Positions 57,701 through 60,700 of a stretch of 64,000 nucleotides of DNA are shown piece after piece. The first letter of the stretch is position 1; each line of letters begins with the position of its first letter. Position numbers: made by a program. This DNA is from Escherichia coli (GTDB lineage: Bacteria; Pseudomonadota; Gammaproteobacteria; Enterobacterales; Enterobacteriaceae): NCBI RefSeq assembly GCF_041886205.1, contig NZ_CP169029.1; one strand, given 5' to 3'.

Positions 57701-60700
57701 TCCGGTTAACGGCGGTCTTACGTACAGTGATCTTACCCAGCAATAGTGGACACGCGGCTAAGTGAGTAAACTCTCAGTCAGAGGTGACTCACATGACAAA
57801 AACAGTATCAACCAGTAAAAAACCCCGTAAACAGCATTCGCCTGAATTTCGCAGTGAAGCCCTGAAGCTTGCTGAACGCATCGGTGTTACTGCCGCAGCC
57901 CGTGAACTCAGCCTGTATGAATCACAACTCTACAACTGGCGCAGTAAACAGCAAAATCAGCAGACGTCTTCTGAACGTGAACTGGAGATGTCTACCGAGA
58001 TTGCACGTCTCAAACGCCAGCTGGCAGAACGGGATGAAGAGCTGGCTATCCTCCAAAAGGCCGCGACATACTTCGCGAAGCGCCTGAAATGAAGTATGTC
58101 TTTATTGAAAAACATCAGGCTGAGTTCAGCATCAAAGCAATGTGCCGCGTGCTCCGGGTGGCCCGCAGCGGCTGGTATACGTGGTGTCAGCGGCGGACAA
58201 GGATAAGCACGCGTCAGCAGTTCCGCCAACACTGCGACAGCGTTGTCCTCGCGGCTTTTACCCGGTCAAAACAGCGTTACGGTGCCCCACGCCTGACGGA
58301 TGAACTGCGTGCTCAGGGTTACCCCTTTAACGTAAAAACCGTGGCGGCAAGCCTGCGCCGTCAGGGACTGAGGGCAAAGGCCTCCCGGAAGTTCAGCCCG
58401 GTCAGCTACCGCGCAAACGGCCTGCCTGTGTCAGAAAATCTGTTGGAGCAGGATTTTTACGCCAGTGGCCCGAACCAGAAGTGGGCAGGAGACATCACGT
58501 ACTTACGTACAGATGAAGGCTGGCTGTATCTGGCAGTGGTCATTGACCTGTGGTCACGTGCCGTTATTGGCTGGTCAATGTCGCCACGCATGACGGCGCA
58601 ACTGGCCTGCGATGCCCTGCAGATGGCGCTGTGGCGGCGTAAGAGGCCCCGGAACGTTATCGTTCACACGGACCGTGGAGGCCAGTACTGTTCAGCAGAT
58701 TATCAGGCGCAACTGAAGCGGCATAATCTGCGTGGAAGTATGAGCGCAAAAGGTTGCTGCTACGATAATGCCTGCGTGGAAAGCTTCTTTCATTCGCTGA
58801 AAGTGGAATGTATCCATGGAGAACGCTTTAGCAGCCGGGAAATAATGCGGGCAACGGTGTTTAATTATATCGAGTGTGATTACAATCGCTGGCGTCGTCA
58901 CAGTGCCTGTGGCGGTCTCAGCCCGGAACAATTTGAAAACCATAATCTCGCTTAGGGCCGTGTCCACATTACGTGGGTAGGATCAATTTTCCTGATGACC
59001 CCATCGACATAGTATTTTTTCAAAGCAAGAATTGCCTTCTCGCTATGTATTCCTGATAGCTTGATCAGGATATCAAAGTCTCTTTCAGATATATTCCCCT
59101 TTGTCATGTGTCACTCCATGAATCAAATTTCATAGTAATCAATCTTTCTTTGATCGACTTATAGATAATAAGATCAGAAATGATAAAAAAGTAACGCATA
59201 TTTCTTCTCGTCATGTCTACTTATAAAATTCAAATGAACTAACCTGAACTACTTACACTGGAATATCATTATATTGGAATAATTATAAAACTGAACAAAA
59301 TGGTCAATGTAATCTGGTTAATTTATAAATATTTACATTGCGTGATGATATTTAATTCCAGTGTTAAGTAATGTCACATGCCTATTATTGGTTACTACTT
59401 TGTAGGTGTTTTGGTTCGGCGTTAATATCATTGGTCATAATCACCTGTGAAAGTTTATTCTTGAAATGTTATAGGTATATTACTTGCAATTAAAAATGAG
59501 AAATTTATTATTATTGTGTTTTGCAAATATAATAATTAAAAATTTATTATAAATTATGATTAGAATTGACAATATAAAAGAATAATAAAACTCAATATGA
59601 AAATAATTATCATCTGGTTTGATACTTTTGCTGTTGATTACAGGAATAAAGTGTCAGAATAATATTGTTATTGGGTAAAAAAAGCCTCCACTATATGTGG
59701 AGGCAAACCCTTAGATAGTTCTATTGAGGCAAGTATGTTATAAATCTGCCTTATCTTTTATAGCATATAAAGATATGTATGCTATATTTTTTTGAAGAAA
59801 TTTTTCCAGAAATTACAGTAATACAAGAAATATTAACTGGTGTGATTTTTGGATGTTTAATAAGTACAGTGTACTTATATTTTTGTAATAAAGATGAACG
59901 CGTCCTTTAGATAAACTGAAAATATTAAGCATGTCTCATGTGGTTTTCTGAATCAAAACTCTTTTCAGTCTTTGATTTTTTGTTAAAAACAGGTTTATTA
60001 CAAGGGTGTTGTTGTGAAATGTGTTTTGGTGTCGTTGTGATTTTATGGTGATAATGTGAATTTTTATCCTTTCAAGATGGCTCCCTGGACGTTAAATACA
60101 GTGGAAATTTATATTAAGATATAAATATAACTATTGCGTTATTTAAATTATTGTCTATTACAGCTCCAGTTAATAGAGCCTGAAGTAATTTCTTAGTATT
60201 TCATCATAAGCGTTTATCTATCGTCTCTTTCTAAATTAACCGGTCGTATTACAAGGTGCTGAATCTGATTAAGGAATGATACTTAGGGGATTATGGCTGA
60301 CTTAATAATTAGATAACTGATAAATGACTATCAGGGGGATATCGTTAAGTCAGCCTTTAAAATCAAGCGATTATATAGCTGGTGACTCTTTTCGAAGAGC
60401 ATCAAGGTAGTCAGCGTACCATTGCATCATTTCTCGTCTTCCTTCAAGGTAACGAGCATGGTTGTATGTACCACGAATGCTGTTTTTGTCCGTATGTGCA
60501 AGTTGCATTTCAATCCATGCACTATTGAATCCTTGCTCGTGTAGAACAGTACTCATTGTATGACGAAATCCATGCCCGGTAGCTTTTTTGTCATAGCCAA
60601 TCTTCTTCAAAACCATATTGACGCTTGCATCGCTGATAGGCCTGTTAACATCATTTCTTCCGGCAAAGATGTATCTGTATCTTCCAGTCAGTTCTTTGAG

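What the first reader, a model, noticed from the sequence alone, without database searches (positions are those of the whole stretch)
59108..60370. 1.3-kb AT-rich stretch with no ORF of 60 codons or more, between the integrase and IS3
Immediately downstream of the integrase stop there is an 11-bp perfect inverted repeat (GGCTGACTTAA … TTAAGTCAGCC, 60294-60304 / 60345-60355) with a 40-nt loop. Further on lies a strong minus-strand terminator hairpin (59677-59704) and then highly AT-rich DNA with only short ORFs. P4-like islands normally carry regulatory genes here, so this may be decayed cargo, an H-NS nucleation region, or host an sRNA or micro-ORF.
Basis: seen in the sequence. Interest (0 to 1): 0.4.

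Follow-up and report, generated by a model that had tools for sequence, protein, structure and literature searches.

The report
Leftover control region of broken regulator
The gene-free, AT-rich 1.3 kb next to the integrase is the non-coding control region of a PapB-type regulator gene that an insertion sequence cut in half; an intact copy survives in Salmonella, so this is an ordinary relic, with one conserved terminator block that could still be a small RNA.

Summary
Window 59108-60370 has 28% G+C against 47.6% for the window. It is the longest stretch without an ORF of 60 codons or more, and both the inverted repeat and the minus-strand terminator are present.

The 51-codon ORF at the left edge (58952-59107, minus) is the first 40 codons of a PapB/FocB-family regulator, cut at 58985/58986 by the IS3-family element. 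The stretch is therefore that gene's upstream region.

Salmonella enterica carries the same argW island with the gene intact (76 aa, followed by a Rob-like AraC-family regulator). Its integrase-papB gap is also about 1.2 kb, ORF-free and 28-29% G+C, so the lack of genes is native and not decay.

An E. coli/Salmonella alignment shows three conserved blocks in otherwise unalignable spacer:
- a hairpin after the integrase stop, with one compensatory pair;
- about 170 nt ending in an invariant intrinsic terminator;
- about 250 nt of promoter and leader, with a conserved 36-codon upstream ORF overlapping the papB-like start.

The other small ORFs are frame-broken in other E. coli copies. There is no Rfam or Pfam signal, no pap-type GATC switch and no expression data. 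Verdict: an ordinary relic. A small RNA at the terminator block remains possible (about 0.2).

The parts
58986..59107 (-). 5' remnant (40 codons plus 2 nt) of a short PapB/FocB-family regulator gene. The called ORF 58952-59107 (51 codons) takes its last 11 codons from the IS end.
   Evidence: Pfam PF03333 PapB: E = 1.2e-10, 41.7 bits against a cut-off of 29.4, profile positions 19-57 of 91. RefSeq annotates it as WP_000160236.1. It is 95% identical to the first 40 residues of the intact 76-aa Salmonella protein P0014. Homology to the Salmonella gene stops at 58986.
57784..58985 (+). IS3-family element whose right end (...GGATCA, 58985) abuts and truncates the papB-like gene.
   Evidence: ORFs at 57784-58092 and 58089-58955. 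RefSeq labels it 'IS3 family transposase' in related genomes. The junction was read directly.
59104..59214 (-). 36-codon upstream ORF (MTRRNMRYFFIISDLIIYKSIKERLITMKFDSWSDT). Its stop overlaps the papB-like start as ATGA. A GGAG Shine-Dalgarno for papB lies at 59117-59114.
   Evidence: The ORF is intact in both lineages, with 10 nucleotide differences distributed 5/0/5 over codon positions and 5 conservative amino-acid changes. It lies in the most conserved part of the stretch, 82-95% identity. It was called as a gene in L090 and in CP061244. It has no homologue elsewhere.
59215..59357 (-). Conserved promoter-proximal block of the papB-like gene. It holds two aligned TATAAT boxes (59287-59282 and 59273-59268, minus strand) and an invariant 21-nt box AATGTAAATATTTATAAATTA (about 59341-59321).
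   Evidence: Alignment A2. Identity is 65-82% against 25-55% in the spacers. The tool lists a promoter-like site TTGACC-17-AATTAT at 59307-59279. Its -35 hexamer is not kept in Salmonella. Promoter activity is not shown.
59677..59704 (-). Intrinsic (Rho-independent) terminator: GCCTCCAC-ATATA-GTGGAGGC followed by T7.
   Evidence: The stem is invariant while the loop differs in Salmonella (GCCTCCACATCTTGTGGAGGC followed by T6).
59705..59846 (-). Conserved non-coding block upstream of the terminator. The core 59705-59770 is 80-88% identical and a second peak at 59791-59846 is 72-78% identical. It is a candidate small RNA body or divergent promoter.
   Evidence: No conserved ORF and no conserved helix other than the terminator. 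A possible -10 TATAAA lies on the minus strand. A possible plus-strand promoter TAGATA-16-TATGTT at 59712-59739 is matched by TAGACA-17-TATGTT in Salmonella.
60295..60355 (-). Two-tier hairpin 15 nt after the integrase stop: an 11-bp outer stem and an inner stem CTGATA/TATCAG. It has no U tract.
   Evidence: It is kept in three variants (-23.6, -21.8 and -16.3 kcal/mol). There is one compensatory C:G to U:A pair, and three one-sided changes that give G-U only on the integrase-sense strand. It travels with the integrase in E. coli islands that carry other cargo.
60371..61561 (-). P4-like tyrosine integrase of the argW island (context).
   Evidence: It is 89.6% identical in nucleotides and 95% in amino acids to the Salmonella copy.
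61737..61811 (-). tRNA-Arg (CCT), argW, the integration site (context).

Best explanation
The stretch is the native non-coding control region of a horizontally acquired regulator cassette, and in this E. coli it is a relic. The cassette's first gene is a short PapB/FocB-family regulator.

Shown:
- An IS3-family element cut the papB-like gene after codon 40, and everything downstream of that point is gone.
- Salmonella enterica has the same argW island with the gene intact (76 aa), followed by a Rob-like AraC-family regulator.
- The Salmonella gap between integrase and papB is equally long, ORF-free and AT-rich.
- Three blocks are conserved between the two lineages, within spacer that cannot be aligned.

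Inferred, reading along the minus strand from the integrase:
(a) A two-tier hairpin forms the 3' end of the integrase mRNA. It has no U tract, so it more likely stabilises or processes the transcript than terminates it.
(b) About 670 nt further on, a strong intrinsic terminator stops any read-through from the tRNA and integrase side. This insulates the regulator's promoter.
(c) About 250 nt of promoter and leader follow. They contain two conserved TATAAT boxes, a 36-codon upstream ORF coupled to the papB-like start through an ATGA overlap, and a GGAG ribosome-binding site.
(d) At 28% G+C the DNA is the kind that H-NS coats. The region probably kept the regulator silent until it was counter-activated.

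In the window the output of all this is at most a 51-residue fusion peptide. It lacks the C-terminal part of the PapB domain, so the region has no remaining regulatory target of its own.
For: PapB identity of the left-edge ORF. One search gives the Pfam match, and RefSeq annotates it the same way.

Truncation is universal in E. coli.
- 238 of 5426 complete genomes carry the stretch, 224 of them at 99% identity or more and 17 at 95-99%.
- Every locus examined has the 51-aa form.
- No full-length E. coli protein turns up in 5.8 billion or 1.8 billion sequences.

Intact homologue. P0014 is encoded at the same fadI-fadL-mlaA-yfdC-argW-int site. The source names it as Salmonella enterica. The core genes there are 80% identical to the window while the integrase is 89.6% identical.

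Conservation between lineages. Alignment and sliding identity show the three conserved blocks. The neutral yardstick is 79% identity at integrase four-fold sites and 62.5% at papB third positions.

Individual elements.
- Terminator stem invariant, loop variable.
- Hairpin pair statistics.
- Upstream ORF kept, with a 5/0/5 codon-position pattern.

No decayed genes. No Pfam domain appears in the six frames.

Analogy with relatives. The closest plasmid PapB-like genes (56% and 45% identity) head chaperone-usher operons. They are likewise preceded by ORF-free gaps of 1.1 and 0.8 kb at 31-32% G+C. One has a same-strand orphan terminator about 470 nt upstream.
Against: - No expression, H-NS occupancy or promoter data exist for either lineage.
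- Promoter-like sites are no more frequent than in shuffles: 10 found against 9.5 expected.
- Only two lineages exist, so the conserved blocks could reflect mosaic ancestry rather than constraint. Block (b) at 80-88% identity is only slightly above integrase four-fold sites at 79%.
- The terminator lies 670 nt from the integrase stop. That is far for a gene terminator and leaves room for a separate transcript.
- In Salmonella the papB-like gene is not followed directly by fimbrial genes. A PefA-like cluster lies about 6 kb away on the other strand. What the cassette regulates is therefore unknown.
- The H-NS high-affinity motif is only weakly enriched: 4 sites with 2 mismatches or fewer against about 1.8 expected from length.
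Confidence: 0.8

Rival explanations
1. Block (b) is an island-encoded small RNA on the minus strand. It would have its own promoter: either a -10 TATAAA giving an RNA of about 72 nt, or a start near 59846 giving about 170 nt. It would end at the terminator at 59677, and it would have been retained after the neighbouring regulator was lost.
For: - About 90 nt ending in the terminator is the best-conserved non-coding part outside the papB leader, at 80-88% identity.
- That exceeds the 62.5% identity at papB third positions.
- A strong terminator with a U7 tail preceded by about 45 nt of largely unpaired sequence is a typical sRNA 3' architecture.
- The terminator is 670 nt from the nearest upstream gene.
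- A similar orphan terminator lies upstream of a plasmid papB-like gene.
Against: - No Rfam family matches. The best hits, 32 and 26 bits, are far below their gathering scores and are driven by the terminator.
- No helix other than the terminator is conserved.
- No convincing conserved -35 hexamer is present (read).
- Identity is barely above integrase four-fold sites at 79%.
- No homologue was found in 80 other-species islands.
- No literature mention was found.
Confidence: 0.2
2. The conserved sequence beside the terminator is a plus-strand promoter, TAGATA-16-TATGTT at 59712-59739. It would drive a roughly 600-nt non-coding transcript towards the integrase, and that transcript would stop at the hairpin at 60295-60355, which on the plus strand is followed by TTTAAAA.
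For: The same site is TAGACA-17-TATGTT in Salmonella, where the scan tool lists it. Both hexamers fall in the 88%-identity core. The hairpin is conserved.
Against: - The E. coli site matches only 8 of 12 positions and fell below the scan threshold.
- The three one-sided changes in the hairpin are G-U compatible only on the integrase-sense strand, which argues against a plus-strand RNA function.
- On the plus strand the Salmonella hairpin folds no better than shuffles, z = -0.6.
- No conserved plus-strand ORF exists.
Confidence: 0.1
3. The stretch is decayed protein-coding cargo: pseudogenes eroded beyond recognition.
For: Islands with related integrases normally have an ORF within about 100 nt of the integrase stop.
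Against: - No Pfam match with E up to 10 appears in any of the six frames.
- The Salmonella island, whose neighbouring genes are intact, has the same ORF-free gap.
- Conservation is concentrated in a terminator and a promoter-leader rather than in frame-consistent blocks.
Confidence: 0.04
4. The stretch is a pap-type phase-variation switch: Dam methylation of two GATC sites within Lrp sites, with a divergent papI-like gene.
For: The adjacent gene is PapB-family. Two GATC sites lie just upstream of it, at 59152 and 59172.
Against: - The two GATC sites are 20 bp apart, lie inside the upstream ORF, and are both absent from Salmonella. Salmonella has one GATC at a different place (read).
- No PapI/FaeA-like remnant appears in any frame.
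Confidence: 0.02
5. The stretch holds a type I toxin-antitoxin pair or micro-protein gene: the hydrophobic 43-codon plus-strand ORF at 59779-59910, with an antisense RNA ending at the terminator.
For: The ORF encodes a hydrophobic stretch (ILTGVIFGCLISTVYLYF) and sits just beyond a minus-strand terminator.
Against: - All 9 other E. coli copies carry one or two extra T at 59786, which breaks the frame after codon 3.
- Salmonella has a stop codon within the aligned part.
- The minus-strand 39-codon ORF at 59813-59932 is likewise broken, by an indel at 59918.
- A hydrophobic composition is expected of any ORF in DNA with 28% G+C.
Confidence: 0.02

Closest known systems
PapB/FocB-family regulators (Pfam PF03333; PapB, FocB, SfaB, DaaA, FaeB, FanA/FanB, PefB) and their upstream regions
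   Same: The left-edge ORF matches the family above the Pfam threshold. The gene is preceded by a long AT-rich ORF-free region. The same is seen in the closest plasmid relatives, which head chaperone-usher operons.
   Different: - The protein is short: 76 aa when intact, lacking the N-terminal 18 profile positions.
- In the window it is cut after codon 40. From my recollection of the PapB mutational work of Xia and Uhlin, this is just after the residue equivalent to PapB Arg61-Lys62 and before Cys65. I did not check that here.
- It is followed in Salmonella by a Rob-like regulator and not by pilin genes.
- There is no papI partner and no conserved GATC pair.
IS-truncated pseudogene remnants in the variable argW-dsdCXA island of E. 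coli (Moritz and Welch 2006, as cited in PMC7545054 and PMC3032704)
   Same: The location is the same: between argW/integrase and the csc and dsdA genes. The content is heavily shaped by IS elements.
   Different: The papers I could read do not describe this stretch or the PapB remnant. The Moritz and Welch paper itself is not held.
H-NS-silenced AT-rich control regions of horizontally acquired virulence regulators (general principle of xenogeneic silencing)
   Same: G+C is 28% in a 47.6% context, upstream of an acquired regulator.
   Different: H-NS occupancy was not tested. The high-affinity motif is only weakly enriched.
Island-encoded Hfq-type small RNAs with Rho-independent terminators
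   Same: A conserved block of about 90 nt ends in a GC-rich hairpin and a U7 tail, far from any gene.
   Different: There is no Rfam family, no demonstrated promoter, no conserved internal structure and no expression data.

Membership tests
PapB/FocB regulator family (PF03333) | Sequence match to the family profile above the curated threshold | tested here: met
   41.7 bits against a 29.4 cut-off, E = 1.2e-10, profile positions 19-57 of 91.
PapB/FocB regulator family (PF03333) | Complete domain, including the C-terminal half | tested here: not met
   The window copy ends at profile position 57 of 91, where the IS begins. The Salmonella copy P0014 is complete. The window gene is therefore a pseudogene remnant of a family member.
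PapB/FocB regulator family (PF03333) | Position at the head of an adhesin or fimbrial operon | tested here: inconclusive
   The window has IS3 downstream. In Salmonella a Rob-like regulator follows, then autotransporter fragments, with a PefA-like cluster about 6 kb away on the other strand. The closest plasmid relatives do head chaperone-usher operons.
Pap-type Dam/Lrp phase-variation switch | Two conserved GATC sites about 100 bp apart in the upstream region | tested here: not met
   The GATC sites at 59152 and 59172 are 20 bp apart. Neither is kept in Salmonella.
Pap-type Dam/Lrp phase-variation switch | Divergent papI/faeA-like gene | tested here: not met
   No Pfam match in the six frames with E up to 10.
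Intrinsic (Rho-independent) terminator | G+C-rich stem-loop followed directly by a U tract | tested here: met
   8 pairs, 6 of them G-C, a 5-nt loop and T7. Folds at -20 kcal/mol, z = -4.6. The stem is invariant and the loop variable between lineages.
Intrinsic (Rho-independent) terminator | Termination of transcription in vivo | not testable with these tools
   Needs Term-seq or a reporter assay.
Small regulatory RNA (any Rfam family) | Match to a curated covariance model | tested here: not met
   Only sub-threshold hits: Arrc14 at 32 bits against a gathering score of 99, and JA04 at 26 against 81.
Small regulatory RNA (generic) | Own promoter and a discrete transcript | not testable with these tools
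   Candidate -10 boxes were read only. Promoter-like sites are no more frequent than in shuffles.
Small regulatory RNA (generic) | Conserved secondary structure beyond the terminator | tested here: not met
   The upstream helices predicted for E. coli are not kept in Salmonella.
H-NS-bound xenogeneic DNA | A+T content well above the genome average | tested here: met
   28.1% G+C against 47.6% for the window; the lowest in the window.
H-NS-bound xenogeneic DNA | H-NS occupancy | not testable with these tools
   Needs ChIP-seq in a carrier strain.
Translationally coupled upstream ORF or leader peptide | ORF and its overlap with the downstream start kept across lineages | tested here: met
   36 codons and the ATGA overlap are intact in both E. 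coli and Salmonella.
Translationally coupled upstream ORF or leader peptide | Substitution pattern of a coding sequence | tested here: inconclusive
   10 differences distributed 5/0/5 over codon positions. The chance of none falling at a given position is about 0.017, or about 0.05 for any of the three positions. The sample is small.
Type I toxin-antitoxin or micro-protein gene | Small ORF conserved among copies | tested here: not met
   The 43- and 39-codon ORFs are frame-broken in 9 of 9 other E. coli copies and in Salmonella.

The most novel reading that the evidence does not exclude
The roughly 90-170 nt block ending at the terminator (59677-59846, minus strand) is a previously undescribed island-borne small RNA shared by the E. 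coli and Salmonella argW islands. It would have been kept in E. coli after the neighbouring PapB-like and Rob-like regulator cassette was destroyed, which would imply a function of its own, for example cross-talk with core or fimbrial mRNAs. A second, compatible possibility is that the conserved 36-codon upstream ORF is a leader peptide that gates translation of this short PapB-type regulator.
Probability: 0.2. Interest if true: 0.45.

Novelty: new member of a known kind. Interest (0 to 1): 0.2.

Why it matters
The main value is in annotation. An apparently empty, oddly composed 1.3 kb next to an integrase turns out to be the upstream control region of an IS-truncated PapB-family regulator. 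The Salmonella copy supplies the intact reference.

The result also gives a small, testable set of elements: an integrase 3' hairpin, an orphan terminator block, and an upstream ORF coupled to the regulator. These could be checked with existing strand-specific RNA-seq of O26/O111 E. coli or of the Salmonella carriers.

If the terminator block proved to be a small RNA, it would add one more horizontally shared regulatory RNA to the enterobacterial list. Otherwise the region is an ordinary relic, carried by about 4% of complete E. coli genomes.

Tried and rejected
- Rfam scans of the window region and of the Salmonella counterpart at permissive E-values found only the tRNA and sub-threshold, terminator-driven hits.
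- Six-frame translations and all small ORFs against Pfam found only the PapB fragment.
- Distant blastn against E. coli genomes and plasmids found no diverged relative, only near-identical copies. A further 29 genomes share just the 120 nt next to the integrase.
- Integrase relatives in one genome per species gave 80 loci. None shares DNA with the stretch by blastn or by nhmmer profiles of the three blocks.
- The viral-contig pattern scan gave 5 hits, all of the E. coli type.
- Protein searches for the PapB fragment found one intact lineage only, in Salmonella. The next relative, P0016, sits on a 1.7-kb contig with no useful context.
- The upstream ORF has no tblastn homologue on plasmids.
- I did not run a metagenome scan. 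Exact-pattern search has low sensitivity for a lineage at 85% identity, and the protein searches already showed no third lineage.
- tblastn found no other Salmonella-island cargo in the window.
- No attR-like repeat of the tRNA 3' end is present in the window.
- The literature searches returned no description of this stretch, the PapB remnant or an sRNA here. The key argW-dsdCXA paper is not held.
- E. coli polymorphisms (26 sites in 10 copies) are too few to show selection.
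Full report
**1. The observation.** The window is an E. coli chromosome segment around tRNA-Arg(CCT) argW (61737-61811, minus strand). yfdC and mlaA lie to the right. A P4-like integrase (60371-61561, minus) and an IS3-family element (57784-58985, plus) lie to the left. Between them, 59108-60370 has 28.1% G+C against 47.6% for the window. It is the lowest-G+C 1.26-kb segment of the window, and it lies in the longest gap without an ORF of 60 codons or more: 58968-60370, 1403 nt, with the next longest at 417 nt. The minus-strand terminator has its stem at 59704-59684 and T7 at 59683-59677. 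Both fold far better than shuffles, with z = -5.5 and -4.6. A perfect 11-bp inverted repeat arises in 5% of shuffles of this AT-rich DNA, so the repeat alone would be marginal.

The 51-codon ORF at 58952-59107 (minus strand) matches Pfam PapB (PF03333) at E = 1.2e-10 over profile positions 19-57 of 91. RefSeq annotates it as a PapB/FocB-family regulator in every related genome I opened. Its last 11 codons come from the IS end. Homology to the intact gene stops at 58986, one base after the IS terminus ...GGATCA. The AT-rich stretch is therefore the 5' flank of a regulator gene truncated by an insertion sequence.

**3. Distribution in E. coli.** The stretch is found in 238 of 5426 complete genomes. 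Of the genomes with a match, 224 are at 99% identity or more and 17 at 95-99%. It always carries the truncated gene. Searches of 5.8 billion and 1.8 billion proteins return only truncated E. coli forms. The DNA to the left of the IS varies between genomes. A further 29 genomes share only the 120 nt next to the same integrase, at 89% identity, with other cargo beyond. The hairpin therefore belongs to the integrase module and the rest belongs to the PapB module.

**4. The intact counterpart.** The representative search found P0014, a 76-aa protein. It is 95% identical over the first 40 residues and has a plausible PapB C-terminal half. It is encoded at the same site (fadI-yfcZ-fadL-mlaA-yfdC-argW-int) in genomes that the source names as Salmonella enterica. 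Their core genes are 80% identical to the window, whereas the integrase is 89.6% identical. That difference suggests the island is shared horizontally.

There the order is: integrase, a gap of about 1.2 kb, the papB-like gene, a Rob-like AraC-family regulator, autotransporter fragments and a PefA-like cluster. The gap is 1223 nt at 28.5% G+C and has no ORF of 60 codons or more. The absence of genes is therefore ancestral and not decay in E. coli. Consistent with this, the six frames of the window stretch give no Pfam match. No other cargo of the Salmonella island is present in the window.

**5. Anatomy from the two-lineage alignment.** Most of the gap is effectively unalignable, at 25-55% identity. 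Three blocks stand out.

- **(a) 60363-60284, 72-75% identity: the hairpin.** Across three variants (window, E. coli R1-type, Salmonella) 92% of pair cells are standard pairs. One pair changes on both sides, C:G to U:A. Three one-sided changes all give G-U on the integrase-sense strand, where they would be A-C mismatches on the other strand. This points to an RNA hairpin at the 3' end of the integrase mRNA. It has no U tract, so it is not a canonical terminator. Stable structure after the stop codon is common in related islands.
- **(b) 59846-59674.** A core at 59770-59674 is 80-88% identical and ends in the terminator. The terminator's stem is invariant and its loop differs. No ORF and no further helix is conserved there.
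- **(c) 59357-59108, 65-95% identity.** This block holds two aligned TATAAT boxes and an invariant 21-nt AT box. It also holds a 36-codon upstream ORF (59214-59104) whose stop overlaps the papB-like ATG as ATGA, and a GGAG 6 nt before that ATG. The upstream ORF is intact in both lineages. Its 10 nucleotide differences fall 5/0/5 over codon positions and give 5 conservative replacements.

As a neutral yardstick, integrase four-fold sites are 79% identical and papB third positions 62.5%. Blocks (b) and (c) are at or above neutral expectation and the spacers are well below it. With only two lineages, constraint and mosaic ancestry cannot be fully separated.

**6. Readings tested and rejected.**
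- **Pap-type Dam/Lrp switch.** The two GATC sites (59152, 59172) are 20 bp apart and lie inside the upstream ORF. Neither is kept in Salmonella, and there is no papI-like remnant.
- **Micro-ORF or type I toxin.** The 43-codon plus-strand ORF and the 39-codon minus-strand ORF are broken by homopolymer indels at 59786 and 59918 in all 9 other E. coli copies. They are interrupted in Salmonella as well.
- **Known RNA family.** None was found.
- **Relatives in other species.** None of 80 islands with related integrases shares any of the three blocks.

**7. Most likely mechanism.**

*Shown:* this is the upstream region of a PapB-family regulator gene destroyed by an IS, and it contains a conserved integrase-3' hairpin, a conserved intrinsic terminator and a conserved leader with an upstream ORF.

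*Inferred:*
- The terminator stops read-through from the tRNA and integrase side, and so insulates the regulator's promoter.
- The promoter lies at the conserved TATAAT boxes.
- The upstream ORF is translated and coupled to the papB-like start.
- The AT-rich DNA is bound by H-NS, which keeps the acquired regulator silent.

Analogy gives some support. The closest plasmid PapB-like genes (56% and 45% identity) head chaperone-usher operons. They also sit behind ORF-free gaps of 1.1 and 0.8 kb at 31-32% G+C, one with a same-strand orphan terminator about 470 nt upstream. In the window the system is dead: the only possible product is a 51-residue fusion peptide.

**8. What remains open.** Block (b) can be read in three ways.
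- A terminator only.
- A small RNA of about 72 nt, from a conserved TATAAA, or of about 170 nt.
- A divergent plus-strand promoter: TAGATA-16-TATGTT at 59712-59739, which is TAGACA-17-TATGTT in Salmonella.

Promoter-like sites are no more frequent here than in shuffles. No expression data or literature bear on the question. I put the sRNA reading at about 0.2.

**9. Verdict.** The feature is real, and its main explanation is ordinary: a relic control region of an IS-truncated PapB-type regulator in the variable argW-dsdCXA island. A regulatory gene does belong here, and an sRNA or upstream ORF is possible, but 'decayed cargo' is not supported. Novelty is a new member of known kinds. Interest is low (0.2), with a modest upside if the terminator block proves to be a small RNA.

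Noticed in passing
L087 9086-9141 (Salmonella integrase-papB gap); alignment A2 columns 426-480: A perfect (CAAAC)n pentanucleotide tract has 11.2 copies in L087, and its copy number differs among Salmonella genomes (about 5 to 12 in L086-L090). It is absent from E. coli. It looks like a slippage-prone tract upstream of the regulator and could act as a phase-variation device.
   Followed up: partly
window 58985/58986 junction; L093 597-1773 and L097 3283-4459: In two other E. coli-type contigs, the IS abutting the papB remnant at exactly the same junction is only 81% identical to the window's IS3. Protein variants show at least five different sequences after ...VIRK. Different elements seem to have replaced one another at one fixed breakpoint.
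   Followed up: partly
window 59786 and 59918: The window differs from all 9 other E. coli copies by single-base deletions in a T run and an A run. These create the 43- and 39-codon ORFs that the ORF list shows here. They may be real slippage or sequencing error.
   Followed up: yes
L087 10232-11431: The Salmonella Rob-like regulator matches the RobA profile only from position 26 of 286. It starts with GTG after a 420-nt gap behind papB. It may be N-terminally truncated or mis-started.
   Followed up: no
L088 1-7330: In one Salmonella genome, P22-like recombination genes (Erf/Rad52, SSB, anti-RecBCD Abc2) lie where yfdC and argW lie in the others. This suggests a prophage integrated in tandem with the island.
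   Followed up: no
L105 and L106 1735-3804 (IncF and other E. coli plasmids): A PapB/FocB-family gene sits directly upstream of a TolC-family gene and a type I secretion ATPase, not of fimbrial genes. It follows about 1.7 kb without annotated genes.
   Followed up: no
window 59754-59789 (+): An AT-only 9-bp hairpin (TATAGCATATAAAGATATGTATGCTATA) is flanked by T7 on one side and A7 on the other. It would be a weak bidirectional terminator-like element. It is present in E. coli only and not in Salmonella.
   Followed up: partly
window 57041-57450 (-) and 53265-56762 (-): Fragments of another transposase (integrase-core domain) lie left of the IS3, followed by a 1165-aa autotransporter gene. The autotransporter is unrelated to the autotransporter fragments of the Salmonella island.
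   Followed up: partly
window 61737-64000 against L087 5234-7202: The island DNA is closer between E. coli and Salmonella than the flanking core genes are: integrase 89.6% against mlaA/yfdC 80.4%. This is consistent with transfer of the island after the species split.
   Followed up: partly
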